From Ruditapes philippinarum (taxonomy: Eukaryota): 64,000 bases of DNA. The DNA lies in NCBI RefSeq assembly GCF_026571515.1, contig NW_026852073.1, forward strand, positions 124,001-188,000, written 5' to 3'. A program made the position numbers. Positions 33,001 through 45,000 of the stretch are shown here, piece by piece (position 1 is the first letter of the stretch; each line of letters begins with the position of its first letter).

Positions 33001-36000
33001 AAGTTTTTTTCTCACTCCAATATGTGCTTTAGTATCAAATCAGCAAATAGTGTTACCAGTCGCATCTGAAATAAAATGGAGTTAACATTAATGCTTAATT
33101 TAAATGTTCAACAGAGATAAATAAATAAAACTAACATTTCAAAAAAGATGTACATAGATTTGATAATTAAATTGGGGATAATCTTAGAGTTTTGTTCATA
33201 TGCGGGGTTCTAGAGTGTTAAAATCATAAAATATATTTCTTTGTAGCAAGGACAATTTGTTTTTCTTTATAAATAACCACTTGGTCATACCAGTAGTAAA
33301 GGTAGATATATTTTAATAAACTTGGTCATTCATTGCTACGGAGAATGAGTTCGATTGTCTTGATTGCTTGATAATAGAAAAGTATAATCAGAGGAAGAAA
33401 AGGACATGTTTATGTCAAAATCAATTTCGCAGATCTACACGTATGTTCTTATCTAAAAATGGCTGTGGTTCATCAACAAATATTTCATGATTTCTTTTTT
33501 CAAACACCAAAACGTAAAAAGTTTAGATGCAAATATAAAACAAACAAACCTACATTAAATATCCGTAATTAATTCAATGAGGAATTCGACTTGTATCAGA
33601 GGAAATGACACACCATACCTTTTAAGACTAAACTAGTTTCATCTGCAGAATGTTTACCAGCGCCATCTGGAACACAGCGGTAAGTGCCGGCGTTGTCACA
33701 TTGCGTTGATGCTAAAACTAGCATCAGTTGACCACTGTTTCCGGTAATATAGCTTAATTCCGTTATTCTATTAAATCCGGTGTTAGTCTCTCCGTTCAGG
33801 AAGCTCGATATTATGGTACTGTTATCCTTGTAAATGACGATATCTGTCAAACCATCAAAGTCTTTAACTTTACAGATTAGGGTTACAGAATCTCCTATCT
33901 GTATTTGATCAACAAAGTTGTCAATGTATATGTCTGGAAATATATTTCAGAAAATGACACCTAGTGCTGATTGAACTCTTTATTTTCGTGTACTTATTCA
34001 ATCGAATAATAATTATAAATAAAATTACCTACCTTCTTACAGATAATCACAATGAGAGTAAAATTCCACAAAAGTAAAGACGCGCCCAAAGAAAGCCGCC
34101 CATGTACATGTATATACGCAACTTAAATAAATTGTTTCAACTATATAATTATGGTGATTACGTGTCAAGTAATAAAGTTTAAAAAATAATTTGATTACTG
34201 TTTGGGACAATTCAAGTTTGCAGTTAAAATTTATTCAATTATTATAAACTTGCTTTTTCAATATTTCTTTGATAATGTTATAAAAACACTTATATAACTA
34301 ACCTCTTCAATGTATTAAAGGGACTCCACTGAGGTTTTTTGACATGATGGGACTGAAAATATTATTCCAGATAATTCTACCATTTGTTGCAGGTTTAGAC
34401 CACAAACCTTTGTGCAAAATTTCAGATCATTCGCGCAGTTCGTTTTTTCCAGGATAATTATTCAACTTGTAAAAAATGACCCAAAATGAAAAGCGTTTAA
34501 ATACTTTTCACTCAAAACCGTAAAAATACGATTTTCAATTTATTTCTTAGTATATTTCTTAACTATTTTTGCATATATTTCTGTTTAAAGTGCCCCAGTT
34601 CATTTATGTAAGAAATTCAAATGTTATGTTTTTAGGCTTTTAAACCTCAGTGGAGTCCATTTAAGAAGCTTTTGTATAAATTTGTAACATAATCCTTTAA
34701 ATATACATGATCAATTTTTTATACGAAAACTGAAGCCACATATTATATAAGTCTTTAAATTCCTAGAATTACCTGTCACGGAACATCCGCCTATCGTTTT
34801 ACAAGGATAACACGTCGTCTCATGAAAGCAATTACCTTGCCCACAACCTGCCGGCACACCCGACACATCCCCGCTGTGGCACCCGACAAACATATTACAA
34901 TGATAGGGGTGTCTTAGGACTCCAGTATAGACCTGGTTTTGAGTGCAATAGTTTTCTAAAGAAAATTTAATATACAGGTAAATATAAACAAAGGGAATCA
35001 ACATTAAATAAATGCAATATCAACACCCTAACAGAACATCAAATTACTAAGGCACAGCGTAACGACACACGGCGGGGCACTGCAAAAGGAATTGGGCAAC
35101 GAAAGGGCATAAATGGACAGATGTAAAATAAAAATAATATAAATATCATAATAAGTTAAAATTAAGAAAAACAGAATCTCTAAAGAAAGTGCAACATGAC
35201 AAAATTGAAAATGTTGCAGGTTCGGTTTGAATAAGCCTGTTCACAGACGGTACTGGAAAGTGCAAGTTACCATCCACGCCCCCTAGCACCGGCATAAGCA
35301 GAACTCAAAGTTTAAGCCCTTATTACAGCATCTTTCTTCTTAAAAATATACTATACTCAAATTTGATATTACAAAATATGGATAATTGTTGCACAGTCTC
35401 TTTGTACATAAACAAGTAACATAATTATTTAGACTTCACATAAAGTATAACATTTTGTTTAAAATCCTACACACTATTGGTGGTCACAATATAAATATAT
35501 AGTGTCATTAAAAATGTTGCTGTGTCTATGGAAGTTACGTTCATTGAACGCCGCCTTTCCTTGTTTAACATATTTTAGGTAAAGGAACAACCCATACATA
35601 TTTTATTTATTTTTTTTAAACAAATTAGACATATTCATTTATAGATTTCAATAAATTTCTGTGATTCATATAGTTTACTCAGGGATGAGTATAATGCATC
35701 TTTAACATATTTTTTAGATCAGGGCTATCATGCTATCATGCATCTATCCATAAACTATAATCACTTGGAAATATATTCCAAACAACCAAACAATTAACTT
35801 TTAAATGTTTAATAGGGAAAAATATTAAATGTTCAAACCTGGGATAACCTCTATGACTTGATTAGAAGACTCGGCTGCCTTACCATCCATCAGAGCTTGT
35901 GACGGTTTAGATATACATTTCAAAAGTTTGTTGTGATATTTGGCCGTCGCAGTGTTTATTCGAAATTCAATGACTCTCCTAGTACTACATTGTCCATTGT

Positions 36001-42000: not shown

Positions 42001-45000
42001 AGTAACAATGAATGTATACAATATATCGCCATAAAAAGTTGCAAATGTAAAGAAAGTAGTATTTTGATTTCCATGCAAAATACTATACTATTTTTCAAAA
42101 ATCAACATAAGCAAAATTTGGTTCAGTTAATTGGCCGGTGTTGAAGGCCCATTATGCCTTGGAAATGCTTTTATTTTTATTATCCCCCGAGGGATATAGA
42201 AATAGTCTCCGTTCTTCCGTCCGTCCGTCCGTCCGTCCGTCCGACATTTTTGGCCCGAGCATATCTCAAAAAGTATTTGAGGTATAAACTTGAAACTTCA
42301 TAGGTGGATAGATCATATTGAGTAGGAGTGCAGTGCACAAGAATGAAAACTCTACCTGCATAATTTTTCAGTTATTGCCCTTTGTTATTTGTCAAATTTC
42401 CCTTTTGTCCAGAACATAACTCAAAAAGCCTGTGAGATATCAACGTGAAACTTCATAGGTGGATAGATCTTACTCAGGAAGTGTGCAGTGCACAAGAGTG
42501 ATAACTCTACCCTTCAAAATTTTTGAGTTATTGCCCTTTGTTATTTTTCATACTTAATTTTTCACCTGAGTGGAGCATATTAACTCAAAAAGTCTTTGAG
42601 ATGTCAACATGAAACTTCATAGGTGGATAGATCTTATTGAGGAGGAATGCTGAATTATAACTCTACCCTTTATCATTTTTGAGTTATTGCCCTTTGTTAT
42701 TTTTCATACAATTTGTCCGGAGCTTATCTCAAAAAATGTTAGAGGTATCAACTTGAAACAAAGTTACTTCATAGGTGGATAGATCTCATTAAGGAGGAGG
42801 GCAGCACACAAGAATGATAACCTACCCTGCATATTTTTTCAGTTATTGCCTTTTGTTATTTTCAGTCATCAGTATTCATATAGGTTTCAAATCTGTACTC
42901 ATTTCAGCCATCAGTTTTCATTACCAAAATACCTCTTGAAATTGAATTATTCTGCCCTACTACATATACATTCTTCTAATGAGTAAACACATTCGGCGGG
43001 GGATGGCCATGTTAACATGGCTCTTGTTTCTCTTTTTTATGTGTACTTTTATAGTATTCAAAAAGTTACTCATTTCTTTCCGTGGCATAATGTGCCTTTA
43101 AATATTTTGCAAATATAGCAGGACAACAAAAATTAGCGGGAAAAATGAAATAAGAATAAAATCATTTCGGGAACACTAAGGACATATCAAAGTAAAAGTA
43201 TATACATACGGTTAGGTGGATCATCTTTGACAAACACAAAATAAATAATAACGCCTGCAGCTATCAGAATTATAAGTACAAAGATCGTTGCAATAATACA
43301 TCTTTGTGGCGAGCATATATCATTCTTCTTTGTACTAGTACTATTTCGTGAATTTTGTACATGTGTAATTACGTTTGAATCTAAAATCTTATCGTATGTT
43401 GTGCTTGAACTTCTGGTTGAATCACTAAGATTGACTGGATCTTGTCCTAAGCTCACTTGTTGACTTCCACTTTGTAAATGATAAGAAACTATAGGAACTA
43501 GGCAACTGGCTGTACGTTCTTCAGTCCGCACATCTCTTTCACGTATAACTTTATTTATTTCTCGTACATCACGGTCTACTGTTTTTAATCTGATATGGCT
43601 TTCTGTGTGCGCATTACGGTCAACAGTTCCCGCTCTGGTTTTGTTTTCTGCATGCGCATTACGGTCCACAGGTCCCGTTCTGGTTTTGTTTTCTGCATGC
43701 GCATTACGGTCCACAGTTCCCGCTCTGGTTTTGTTTTCTGCATGCGCATTACGGTCCACAGTTCCCGATCTGGTATGCTTTTCTGCAAGCGCATTACGGT
43801 CCACAGTTCCCGATCTGGTATGCTTTTCTGCAAGCGCATTTCTATCCACTGTTCCCGTTCTGTTATAGTTTTCTGCACGTTTATTTCTGGTCACATTTCC
43901 CGTACTTGTATGGTTTTCTGCACGCGCATTCTGATCCACAGTTTTCGTACATGTATGGTTTTCTGCACGCTTATTACTGGCCACAGTTTCCGTAGAGGTA
44001 TGGTTATAATCAGTATTGGCATCTTGGTCTACTGTTTTATTGCTATCATGACTATTTAAAACTCCTACACGACCATCGACATAACTTGAAACAGTTCCGT
44101 TACTCACATCTGATTCCTTTGCGTATGAATACGGAGATTCTTGTGATAATAATTCAAGTTGAATGTACCCTTCTGTGACTATGAGTTCCTGTCCACTGTC
44201 ATGGATATTAACCCGATTGTCATATTCGGTGGAACGGTTAGTTTCAGCTTTTTTTCCAAGTCCATGGGTATCCATGATCTTTTTTTATAGTAAGCGGGAC
44301 AATTTATAAATCAAAACTTCCTACTCTATATATAAATCCAGATTATTTAAAGTGAATAACTTGATATTTATCTTTTTTTTATAATTTAACAACTGATCGA
44401 GACTGTAAGTAAAATCTTATTGTCAATCTTTTTTTAATGTAAACGGAATAATCAATACATACAATTTTAATGGTCTTTTGAAAATCACCAAGTGTATAAT
44501 TTCCTTTTAATTCTTCTTTTTTTACATAAAGTTATGCAGTCACGGTCAATCACGGGCATGTCGTTTAAAATATGTTCTATTGATATATATCTGGGAGTTT
44601 ATGAAACTTAATACTCACTACAATGTAAACCCACAAAACTGATCAGTTAATGAAATTTGAAGCAACATTGTATACACACCGGTCTCTCAAATATCGACCT
44701 TTGTCTTACGACGCATTACTTACACCAAATGAGGGTAAAAAATGACTCCGACATAAAGAAGTCCGCGAAGGAATGACAAGTTTATTTTTAAGACCTATGA
44801 ATTTAAGCAATGGAAATACAAATATCAGATAATTTCGTATATTTTTGCTAACAACGTGTTCAGTTTCTGTTTTAAGTAATACTAGTTGCAGGTGAAATAT
44901 ACGAGAGAATATAGTTTGAATGATATAAATATGATCAACATGATTATATTCTGTCGTTTATCCAGTTAGCAACTTGTGAAACGAATTTATAAATTATAAA

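What the first reader, a model, noticed from the sequence alone, without database searches (positions are those of the whole stretch)
33040..44275. Unusual architecture: type II TM + 3 Sushi + multiple Ig + chitin-binding module
Seen: CCP, Ig-like and a Cys-rich RHPYHC..F..C..C..CF..C exon all lie C-terminal to the TM. Established: Ig + chitin-binding combinations are known from secreted amphioxus/ascidian VCBPs, and Ig receptors are normally type I. Inference: a convergent, membrane-anchored VCBP-like pattern receptor assembled by phase-1 exon shuffling. The CBM14 call rests on Cys spacing only.
Basis: partly seen in the sequence, partly recalled or inferred. Interest (0 to 1): 0.68.

Follow-up and report, generated by a model that had tools for sequence, protein, structure and literature searches.

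The report
Clam type II Sushi–Ig–peritrophin surface receptor
This is a real but unstudied bivalve gene for a membrane protein anchored by its front end, with Sushi, antibody-like and peritrophin-type (possibly chitin-binding) modules outside the cell; in this copy three of the five antibody-like exons are broken.

Summary
The gene exists at 33040-44275 on the minus strand. Exon 1 has no signal peptide, a 325-residue hydrophilic tail and one membrane span. Behind it lie a three-Sushi exon, Ig-like exons, an eight-Cys exon and a last Ig exon. All introns are phase 1. A 1371-aa RefSeq model from the hard clam Mercenaria mercenaria ("uncharacterized protein LOC123556107") matches the whole locus in order, so the exons form one conserved unit.

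The Cys-rich exon is a divergent peritrophin-A/CBM14 domain, and the match rests on more than Cys spacing. It misses Pfam's cut-off (14.9 against 22.1 bits). It does match the solved Aplysia protein EHEP (E 3.6e-5; 4.5e-6 by profile), and 5 of its 8 hits outside its own family are multi-CBM14 proteins. No Cys-fixed shuffle reached its score (0 of 1000).

New finding: three middle Ig exons are decayed (stops, frameshifts, a ~1 kb interruption), while 2469 nt of the other exons carry no lesion. Skipping the decayed exons keeps the frame, leaving 3 Sushi plus an Ig-PAD-Ig head.

Chitin binding and an immune role are untested; EHEP does not bind chitin. The family is unnamed.

The parts
43210..44275 (-). 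Exon 1: start codon, 325-residue cytoplasmic tail, membrane span, six extracellular residues. Ends in phase 1 with donor GTATGT.
   Evidence: It is 1066 nt with no internal stop. Its N-terminus and membrane-proximal part align to the Mercenaria protein.
43589..44005 (-). 45-nt tandem repeat, 9.3 copies, encoding ten 15-residue units in the cytoplasmic tail.
   Evidence: Tandem Repeats Finder gives 83% matches. The units are printed. Mercenaria isoform X1 has a different short repeat at the same place.
43229..43300 (-). Single membrane span (signal anchor), residues 326-349.
   Evidence: The 19-residue Kyte-Doolittle mean is 3.25, and this is the only segment above 1.6. Flanking charge is +3/-1 on the N side and +1/-2 on the C side.
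40300..40806 (-). Exon 2: three Sushi/CCP modules in one 507-nt phase 1-1 exon.
   Evidence: Pfam Sushi, E 6.6e-20, 3 stretches. PDB factor H, E 6.4e-55. It is 47-50% identical to each of three Mercenaria triple-Sushi units and has no lesions.
39679..40049 (-). Decayed Ig-like exon (V/I-like type). It has an in-frame TAG at 39945-39943 and two further frame changes near its 3' end. Length is 371 nt, not a multiple of 3.
   Evidence: tblastn alignment with a stop, 37% identity. Three-frame read. The frameshift-aware alignment places events at 39954, 39928, 39723 and 39698.
38997..39146 (-). Decayed Ig-like exon, 5' half (C2-like type), with in-frame TGA at 39084-39082 and 39015-39013.
37752..37950 (-). 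3' half of the same decayed Ig-like exon. It lies about 1 kb from its 5' half, and an interspersed repeat (37954-38092) abuts it.
   Evidence: tblastn 44% identity. Repeat copies at 35157-35308 and 59577-59669. Alignment.
37116..37470 (-). Decayed Ig-like exon. Two frameshifts were located (37206, 37135), and a third is implied by the phase at its acceptor. Length is 355 nt, with 7 stops in the phase-1 frame.
35839..36210 (-). Intact Ig-like exon (C2-like), 372 nt, phase 1-1. First unit of the distal head.
   Evidence: 54% identical to Mercenaria residues 1075-1196. No lesions. No Pfam or PDB match of its own. Atlas look-alikes of the homologue's stretch are Ig families, top score 0.95.
34773..34955 (-). 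Intact peritrophin-A/CBM14-like exon, 183 nt, phase 1-1, eight Cys.
   Evidence: Pfam CBM_14 E 0.031, 14.9 bits, below the cut-off. PDB EHEP E 3.6e-5 and 4.5e-6 by profile. Hits to multi-CBM14 proteins. The six canonical Cys align. Shuffle control. hhalign 91.7%.
33619..33933 (-). Intact Ig exon (V/I-like), 315 nt, phase 1-1. Last unit of the head.
   Evidence: Pfam ig E 2.7e-7, 31.2 bits, above the 21.8 cut-off. 59% identical to Mercenaria, whose matching stretch gives V-set E 8e-9.
33040..33065 (-). Last exon: eight residues ending in Cys, then TGA.
   Evidence: Sequence. The C-terminal residues, including the final Cys, are shared with the Mercenaria protein.

Best explanation
The locus is a bivalve gene for a single-pass type II (N-terminus inside) cell-surface glycoprotein. 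It is the counterpart of Mercenaria mercenaria LOC123556107.

Shown:
- The cytoplasmic part is a hydrophilic tail with a species-specific repeat array and a few conserved tyrosine islands.
- Outside the cell comes a stalk of Sushi modules, plus Ig-like modules in Mercenaria.
- At the far C-terminal tip sits a head made of an Ig-like domain, a divergent eight-Cys peritrophin-A/CBM14 domain and a V/I-like Ig domain. The protein ends in a conserved Cys.
- The head is the best conserved part (54-61% identity), ahead of the stalk (37-50%) and the tail (25-33%).
- The gene is built from phase-1 exons. Their number changes by whole exons: Mercenaria has three nearly identical triple-Sushi units where this copy has one.
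- In this copy the three stalk Ig exons have decayed.

Inferred:
- The mRNA here skips the three dead exons. This keeps the frame and gives a shorter protein: 3 Sushi plus Ig-PAD-Ig.
- The head binds an insoluble or polymeric ligand, chitin being the first candidate.
- Binding is reported to the cell through tyrosine phosphorylation of the tail.
For: One conserved gene:
- tblastn of the Mercenaria protein gives 13 colinear matches from 44248 to 33620.
- Read by eye, the split codons at 7 of 7 junctions downstream of the Sushi exon give the same residue as the Mercenaria protein.

Topology:
- There is one hydrophobic span in both proteins, no N-terminal signal, and net positive charge on the N side.

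Domains:
- Sushi.
- Ig.

Peritrophin-A domain (PAD):
- PDB EHEP, E 3.6e-5 and 4.5e-6. EHEP is three peritrophin-A domains (passages).
- Pfam CBM_14, E 0.031.
- Of 10 hits among 1.84 billion proteins, 2 are the same family, 5 are multi-CBM_14 proteins and 3 are neither.
- All six canonical Cys columns are invariant against four Pfam-confirmed CBM_14 repeats.
- 0 of 1000 Cys-fixed shuffles reach 25.4 bits; their maximum is 10.5.
- hhalign gives 91.7% probability.

Exon-specific decay:
- At least 9 lesions lie in about 1080 nt of three adjacent exons, against none in 2469 nt of the rest.
- The chance that all 9 fall there under an even spread is 2.2e-5.
- The control exons E2, E5 and E7 aligned with no event.

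Tail:
- Conserved islands include a Y-D-N-R motif and a membrane-proximal T-T-Y-D-[KR]-I motif.
Against: - No transcript data exist for this species, and the Mercenaria protein is a computed RefSeq model (XP_ accession). Neither splicing, nor skipping of the dead exons, nor expression is shown.
- The PAD fails Pfam's gathering cut-off (14.9 against 22.1 bits). Single-repeat scores against CBM14 proteins are weak (18 bits or less). The last third of the domain did not align to the CBM14 profiles.
- The CBM14 repeat profile was built from proteins that had been picked as hits to this exon, so its scores lean in favour.
- The nearest solved relative, EHEP, binds polyphenol. It and Der p 23 are stated not to bind chitin (passages).
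- Four of the five Ig-like units have no Pfam match in this window or in the Mercenaria protein.
- The YxxL motif near the N-terminus is not conserved in Mercenaria.
- The fold could not be predicted.
Confidence: 0.6

Rival explanations
1. The whole gene is a dead or dying pseudogene in this genome. The intact exons are open only because the death is recent.
For: Three adjacent coding exons carry at least 9 disabling lesions. No expression evidence exists. Word-index searches with exon 1 and with exon E5 found no annotated protein from this species.
Against: All lesions fall in about 30% of the exon length, with none in the other 2469 nt (P 2.2e-5 under an even spread). All introns are phase 1, so leaving the dead exons out keeps the frame. 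A near-identical copy of the PAD exon from another record differs at 3 of 60 exon residues against 6 of 37 flanking intron-read residues. That is a weak trend only (Fisher P 0.08).
Confidence: 0.22
2. The protein is not an immune sensor. It anchors epithelial cells to the animal's own chitin-containing matrix, such as the shell organic framework, the periostracum or the gastric shield.
For: CBM_14, Sushi and C1q are named as widely shared domains of mollusc shell matrix proteins. CBM_14 is described as the only domain found in the shell matrix proteins of all 12 molluscs compared (passages of PMC6368272). A stalk of variable length with a distal binding head suits adhesion as well as sensing.
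Against: Shell matrix proteins are secreted, whereas this protein is membrane-bound with a long tail carrying conserved tyrosine islands. Its neighbours are C1q genes and a Syk-type kinase, which fits immunity equally well. No tissue data exist.
Confidence: 0.25
3. The peritrophin-A-like domain binds something other than chitin: a polyphenol as EHEP does, another glycan, or a protein. The 'chitin-binding' label would then be wrong.
For: The best and only significant solved relative is EHEP. Its paper states that EHEP and Der p 23 lack chitin binding and that the chitin-contact residues are not conserved across the family (passages). The domain has two extra Cys (C42, C51), invariant in its three family members, and a C-terminal third that does not align to CBM14 profiles.
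Against: Two aromatic positions, F22 and F43, align with aromatic consensus positions of the CBM14 repeat profile. Most relatives by sequence are multi-CBM14 proteins. A squid chitin-binding beak protein is the second PDB hit, but at E 0.47 it is not significant.
Confidence: 0.3
4. The gene model is an artefact: the membrane-span exon and the Sushi/Ig/PAD exons belong to separate transcripts.
For: The only full-length support is a computed RefSeq model. Intron 1 is 2.4 kb and holds a 156-bp satellite.
Against: The same exon order, from tail and membrane span to the last Cys, occurs in two species. Exon 1 ends in phase 1 and the Sushi exon starts in phase 1. The Sushi exon has no start codon or signal peptide of its own at its 5' end.
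Confidence: 0.06

Closest known systems
Mercenaria mercenaria LOC123556107 (XP_053403368.1 and XP_053403366.1, 'uncharacterized protein')
   Same: The order of parts is the same from N-terminal tail, membrane span, triple-Sushi unit and Ig-like units to the eight-Cys PAD, the last Ig and the C-terminal Cys. It is colinear over the whole locus, with 47-61% identity in the intact extracellular exons.
   Different: Mercenaria has three nearly identical triple-Sushi units (168-170 of 172-173 residues identical) and five intact Ig-like units. This copy has one Sushi unit and only two intact Ig-like exons. The tail repeats differ in sequence and period. It is a computed model that no searched paper mentions.
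[quoted passage not shown]
   Same: Ig-type domains are combined with a chitin-binding-type domain in one protein. An immune or gut-surface role is proposed (abstracts; passages of PMC4757023).
   Different: VCBPs are secreted, have two V-type domains followed by the chitin-binding domain, have no Sushi modules and occur in protochordates. Here the PAD sits between two Ig-like domains on a membrane-anchored stalk. No sequence kinship was tested, so any likeness is convergent at best.
EHEP, the 25 kDa polyphenol-binding protein of Aplysia kurodai (PDB 8IN3)
   Same: It is the closest solved relative of the Cys-rich exon: a mollusc peritrophin-A domain with spacing C-15-C-5-C in the first half.
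   Different: EHEP is a secreted digestive protein made of three PADs only. It binds phlorotannin and not chitin (passages). This domain has eight rather than six Cys.
Syk-coupled type II C-type lectin receptors (Dectin-1, CLEC-2)
   Same: Both have type II topology, an N-terminal cytoplasmic tail with single tyrosine motifs and a distal glycan-binding head on a stalk (passages of PMC3074083 and PMC8882614). Here a tandem-SH2 tyrosine kinase gene lies head to head 1.8 kb away.
   Different: There is no C-type lectin domain. The N-terminal YxxL motif is not conserved in Mercenaria. No binding to the kinase is shown. This is an analogy of logic only.
Complement-control (CCP) membrane proteins such as CR2, MCP and DAF
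   Same: The Sushi exon's best solved matches are these proteins and factor H.
   Different: They are type I or GPI-anchored (recalled, not tested here) and lack Ig-PAD-Ig heads.

Membership tests
Peritrophin-A / CBM14 domain (Pfam PF01607) | Score at or above Pfam's gathering cut-off | tested here: not met
   14.9 bits against 22.1, E 0.031, covering profile positions 6-41 of 53. No CBM_14 row at E<=0.01 for the Mercenaria protein either.
Peritrophin-A / CBM14 domain (Pfam PF01607) | Six Cys in the family's spacing | tested here: met
   Spacing is 15-5-11-10-8 between C3, C19, C25, C37, C48 and C57. All six columns are invariant against four Pfam-confirmed CBM_14 repeats. EHEP's pattern is CX15CX5CX9CX12CX5-9C. 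Two extra Cys are present (C42, C51).
Peritrophin-A / CBM14 domain (Pfam PF01607) | Significant sequence similarity to accepted members, beyond the Cys | tested here: met
   EHEP E 3.6e-5 and 4.5e-6. Five of 8 hits outside the exon's own family are multi-CBM_14 proteins. 0 of 1000 Cys-fixed shuffles reach the real score. hhalign 91.7%. The profile used was built from proteins picked as hits to this exon.
Peritrophin-A / CBM14 domain (Pfam PF01607) | The peritrophin-A fold with disulfides C1-C3, C2-C6, C4-C5 | not tested
Peritrophin-A / CBM14 domain (Pfam PF01607) | Binding of chitin | not testable with these tools
   Not all members bind chitin (passages).
VCBP | Secreted protein with two N-terminal V-type Ig domains and one C-terminal chitin-binding domain | tested here: not met
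   The protein has a type II membrane anchor. The order is Sushi x3, Ig-like units, PAD, Ig. The VCBP definition comes from abstracts and passages.
Sushi / CCP module | Pfam PF00084 above the cut-off, repeated | tested here: met
   71.7 bits against 20.7, 3 stretches. PDB complement regulators.
Immunoglobulin superfamily domain | Pfam Ig-clan model above the cut-off | tested here: met
   Met for exon 33933-33619 only: ig, 31.2 bits against 21.8.
Immunoglobulin superfamily domain | The same, for exon 36210-35839 and the three decayed exons | tested here: not met
   No Pfam family at E<=10 and no PDB hit. The only support is Atlas look-alikes of the Mercenaria stretches (0.95 and 0.93) and weak internal similarity to the confirmed Ig.
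Type II (signal-anchor) membrane protein | No cleavable signal peptide, one membrane span, net positive charge on the N side, Cys-rich domains C-terminal to the span | tested here: met
   Hydropathy and charge count for this gene and for the Mercenaria protein. No dedicated topology predictor was on hand.
hemITAM / Syk-coupled type II receptor | A conserved single YxxL motif with acidic residues before it in the N-terminal tail | tested here: inconclusive
   The window has such a motif at Y37, but Mercenaria has no Yxx[LIV] there. Both share a membrane-proximal YxxI (Y294 here, Y191 in Mercenaria). The motif consensus is recalled, not taken from a call.

The most novel reading that the evidence does not exclude
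This is a clam counterpart of the Dectin-1 logic, built from different parts. A type II surface receptor carries a distal Ig-PAD-Ig head that senses chitin or another cell-wall polymer of fungi, protists or parasites. It dimerises, perhaps through its conserved C-terminal Cys, and signals through single tyrosine motifs in its N-terminal tail to the tandem-SH2 Syk-type kinase encoded head to head 1.8 kb away. Its stalk length is tuned between species by gain, loss and decay of whole phase-1 exons.
Probability: 0.1. Interest if true: 0.8.

Novelty: new variant of a known kind. Interest (0 to 1): 0.5.

Why it matters
Bivalves have no antibodies and rely on large, fast-changing sets of innate receptors. 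Membrane receptors for chitin-type polymers are not among those listed in the mollusc review I read in passages (PMC5877582).

A type II protein whose far tip is an Ig-PAD-Ig head would be a new way of assembling a surface sensor or anchor from common modules. It would be a second, independent pairing of Ig and peritrophin-type domains besides the protochordate VCBPs.

The locus is also a clean example of exon-level evolution. All junctions are phase 1, whole Sushi exons are copied in one species, and three Ig exons have decayed in the other while the rest stays intact.

The caveat is that everything about ligand, signalling and expression is inference.

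Tried and rejected
- Pfam on the long stop-to-stop frames gave nothing for the Cys-rich exon at E<=1. The sub-threshold CBM_14 row appeared only with the exon cut to its own codons.
- Word-index searches for longer proteins found nothing with exon 1 or exon E5. One search did not even recover the Mercenaria protein, although tblastn gives 135 bits for it, so these blanks are weak evidence.
- The same tool with Mercenaria residues 715-1371 returned only that protein itself.
- phmmer with default filters lost the multi-repeat hits, which came back with filters off. Single repeats score 18 bits or less, so the strong whole-protein E-values of the CBM14 hits come from summing many weak repeats.
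- Structure prediction accepted no job at three tries. No fold or Foldseek comparison was made.
- The Atlas did not hold the window's exon. The homologue's stretches were used instead.
- I first read the exon at 37470 as one frame ending in TAG, and the exon at 40049 as ending at a weak GTTAAA donor (note). Comparison with the Mercenaria protein showed frameshifts and the true donors instead.
- The frameshift-aware alignment replaces the TAG in the first decayed exon by two nearby frame changes. Either reading breaks the exon.
- The start of the tblastn match at 37980-37954 lies inside an interspersed repeat and was dropped as spurious.
- An ITAM reading of the tail was rejected: the two Yxx[LI] motifs are 257 residues apart.
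- ARAGORN found no tRNA where Rfam reports one.
- Six literature searches found no description of the architecture.

Full report
**What is there**

The window is AT-rich (GC about 0.28-0.37), holds no N and looks like bivalve DNA.

- Exon 1 (44275-43210) is an open frame of 355 codons plus one base.
- It has no hydrophobic N-terminus. The highest 19-residue Kyte-Doolittle mean in the first 60 residues is 0.21.
- It has a 325-residue hydrophilic tail and one strongly hydrophobic span at residues 326-349 (mean 3.25).
- Net charge is +3/-1 in the 15 residues before the span and +1/-2 after it.
- This is the signature of a signal anchor with the N-terminus inside the cell. No dedicated topology program was on hand.
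- The tail contains a 45-nt tandem repeat of 9.3 copies that encodes ten 15-residue units.

**The modules behind the membrane span**

- Exon 40806-40300 (507 nt) gives Pfam Sushi at E 6.6e-20 in three stretches. Its best solved relatives are factor H, CR2, MCP and DAF.
- Exon 33933-33619 gives Pfam ig at 31.2 bits, above the 21.8 cut-off.
- Exon 34955-34773 is the eight-Cys exon.
- Of the 8 frames scanned, five had no family at E<=1. Exon 1 had only sub-threshold rows.
- Every intron is phase 1. The intact internal exons measure 507, 372, 183 and 315 nt, all multiples of three.

**One gene or several?**

As the task required, every search was made exon by exon, and the step of searching or folding a joined protein was left out.

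The link between exons comes from a database protein instead. A HMMER search of 1.84 billion cluster representatives with the 60-residue Cys-rich exon gave 10 proteins at E<=0.001. One of them is a 1371-aa protein that is 60% identical over residues 1198-1257. It is XP_053403368.1, "uncharacterized protein LOC123556107 isoform X2" of the hard clam Mercenaria mercenaria.

tblastn of that protein against the window gives 13 colinear matches running from 44248 down to 33620:

| Part | Identity to the Mercenaria protein |
|---|---|
| Tail | 25-33% |
| Sushi exon (to each of three Mercenaria units) | 47-50% |
| Middle Ig-like exons | 37-50% |
| Exon 36210-35839 | 54% |
| Cys-rich exon | 61% |
| Last Ig exon | 59% |

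Read by eye, the split codon at each of the seven junctions downstream of the Sushi exon gives the same residue as the Mercenaria protein at the aligned place. So the same order of parts, from tail and membrane span to the last Cys, exists in two species.

There are limits to this evidence. The Mercenaria entry is a computed model, and I saw no transcript evidence for either species. No paper in the library mentions the locus.

**Three Ig exons are dead in this copy**

Comparison with the Mercenaria protein shows five Ig-like units there. In the window three of them are broken:

1. Exon 40049-39679 is 371 nt, not a multiple of three. It has an in-frame TAG at 39945-39943 and two more frame changes near 39723 and 39698. 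The frameshift-aware alignment prefers two nearby shifts at 39954 and 39928 to the stop. Either way the exon is broken.
2. The next unit starts at 39146 and has TGA at 39084-39082 and at 39015-39013. Its second half lies about 1 kb away at 37950-37752. An interspersed repeat at 37954-38092 abuts that half and has other copies at 35157-35308 and 59577-59669.
3. Exon 37470-37116 is 355 nt. Frame changes were located at 37206 and 37135, and a third is implied because the body of the exon is out of register with its phase-1 acceptor.

That makes at least nine lesions in about 1080 nt. The other exons total 2469 nt and have none. The three control exons aligned by the same script showed no event.

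If nine lesions fell evenly over all exon sequence, the chance that all hit this block is 2.2e-5. I therefore read this as decay of three exons inside a gene that is otherwise kept, not as decay of the whole gene. Because all junctions are phase 1, leaving the three exons out keeps the frame. The skipping itself is inference.

A near-identical copy of the Cys-rich exon from another record (P0002, 95% identical) differs at 3 of 60 exon residues against 6 of 37 residues read from the flanking introns. This trend is weak (P 0.08).

**Is the Cys-rich exon CBM14-like?**

For:
- Cut to its own codons, it gives Pfam CBM_14 at E 0.031.
- Among 177,635 distinct PDB sequences only two match at E<=10. 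One is the 25 kDa polyphenol-binding protein 8IN3 at E 3.6e-5, with all three of its domains aligned. The other is a squid chitin-binding beak protein at E 0.47.
- A profile of the three family members raises the first match to 4.5e-6 and finds nothing else.
[quoted passage not shown] It is made of three peritrophin-A domains with the pattern CX15CX5CX9CX12CX5-9C (passages of PMC10619976).
- Of the 10 proteins, two belong to this family. Five are multi-CBM_14 proteins with 7 to 32 Pfam stretches. Three have no CBM_14.
- Aligned with one repeat from each of four of those proteins, all six canonical Cys columns are invariant, with spacing 15-5-11-10-8. Two extra Cys (C42, C51) are shared by the three family members.
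- A profile of 51 CBM14 repeats scores the exon at 25.4 bits. None of 1000 shuffles that keep every Cys in place reaches it (maximum 10.5), and neither does any of 1000 full shuffles. So the match does not rest on Cys spacing alone.
- Profile against profile gives 91.7% probability over 36 columns.

Against:
- The Pfam score is below the cut-off (14.9 against 22.1 bits).
- Single repeats score 18 bits or less.
- The last third of the domain does not align.
- The repeat profile was built from proteins chosen because they had hit this exon.
- No fold could be computed, because structure prediction accepted no job.

My reading is that this is a divergent eight-Cys member of the peritrophin-A fold family, with a probability of about 0.8. 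What it binds is open. The EHEP paper states that EHEP and Der p 23 do not bind chitin and that the contact residues are not conserved in the family.

**The Ig-like units**

- Only the last one passes Pfam, both here and in Mercenaria (V-set E 8e-9).
- Exon 36210-35839 has no Pfam or PDB match.
- The Atlas did not hold the window's sequence. Run on the Mercenaria stretches, it gave Ig families as nearest look-alikes: 0.95 for residues 1075-1196 and 0.93 for 955-1074.
- Within the Mercenaria protein the units fall into two weakly related types. Units a, c and e (the last is the Pfam-confirmed one) form one type, and units b and d the other, with E-values of 1e-3 to 2e-4 in a five-sequence comparison.
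- These are leads, not proofs.

**How it most likely works**

In a type II protein the C-terminus is the point furthest from the membrane. The Ig-PAD-Ig block, which ends in a conserved Cys, is therefore the distal head. It is also the best conserved part. The Sushi and middle Ig units form a stalk whose length differs by whole exons: Mercenaria has three triple-Sushi units that are 168-170 of 172-173 residues identical to each other, and this copy has one. This pattern fits a ligand-binding head on an adjustable stalk.

The tail keeps a few islands between the species. These include a Y-D-N-R motif and a membrane-proximal T-T-Y-D-[KR]-I motif. The window also has a YxxL motif at Y37 that Mercenaria lacks. 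From recalled consensus motifs, these look like phosphotyrosine docking sites. Signalling through them is inference.

**Neighbourhood**

- Upstream on the plus strand are three tandem genes, each with a coiled-coil exon and a C1q exon. The C1q exons match Pfam at E 7.8e-18, 6.7e-15 and 4.4e-15.
- Head to head with the receptor, from about 46070, runs a gene with two SH2 exons (E 1.5e-8 and 1.1e-7) and tyrosine kinase exons. Its best solved matches include SYK, ZAP-70 and PYK2.
- Two SH2 domains plus a kinase is the Syk-type layout.
- This makes a Dectin-1-like logic the boldest reading. Adjacency is not evidence of binding, and I rate this reading at about 0.1.

**Comparison with what is known**

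- VCBPs are secreted, have two V-type domains followed by a chitin-binding domain, and occur in protochordates (abstracts; passages of PMC4757023). This gene fails that definition on secretion, domain order and Sushi content. It can only be a loose, convergent analogue.
- A rival role in anchoring cells to the animal's own chitin matrix is plausible. CBM_14, Sushi and C1q are all named as common shell-matrix domains (passages of PMC6368272).
- A 2018 review of mollusc carbohydrate recognition, read in passages, lists FREPs as the mollusc Ig-type receptors and no Ig-plus-chitin-binding protein.
- Six searches of the paper library found no description of this architecture. Supplements were closed and could hold expression data.
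- Database searches found only the Mercenaria protein and one unnamed fragment as family members. Two further searches found nothing and were shown to be insensitive.

**Verdict**

The gene is real and its architecture is unusual and unstudied, assembled from common modules. The CBM14-type call is reasonably supported, the VCBP analogy is only loose, and function is unknown beyond inference. The added finding is that three stalk exons have decayed in this copy. I rate it a new variant of a known kind, with interest 0.5.

Noticed in passing
window 46070-64000 (+): A gene with two SH2 exons (48277-48465 and 54695-54904; an SH2 start motif near 46249) and tyrosine kinase exons (60120-60488, 61551-61889, 63299-63481). 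This is the Syk/ZAP-70-type layout. It lies head to head with the receptor gene, about 1.8 kb from its start, and runs off the window.
   Followed up: partly
window 1823-4183, 16735-19180, 21516-23372 (+): Three tandem genes, each with a signal-peptide plus coiled-coil exon followed by a C1q exon (Pfam C1q E 7.8e-18, 6.7e-15, 4.4e-15). The coiled-coil frame of the third is much shorter (168 aa, against 285 and 331).
   Followed up: partly
window 37954-38092, 35157-35308, 59577-59669: A short interspersed repeat, 71-85% identical between copies. One copy abuts the broken Ig exon, another lies in the intron before the PAD exon, and a third lies in the kinase gene.
   Followed up: partly
window 42260-42862 and 42208-42243: Intron 1 of the receptor gene holds a 156-bp satellite of 3.8 copies and a (TCCG)9 microsatellite.
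   Followed up: no
window 41497-41635 and 32297-32424: Another dispersed repeat pair, 78% identical in inverted orientation. One copy is in intron 1 and the other just downstream of the gene.
   Followed up: no
window 55599-55670 (+): Rfam reports a tRNA-like match (36.7 bits, above the 29-bit cut-off) inside an intron of the kinase gene. ARAGORN finds no tRNA there, so it may be a tRNA-derived repeat.
   Followed up: partly
Mercenaria protein P0012 against P0004: The two RefSeq isoforms differ only in the number of a short cytoplasmic repeat. The tail repeat array is therefore variable in that species too, at the same place as the unrelated 15-residue repeat here.
   Followed up: partly
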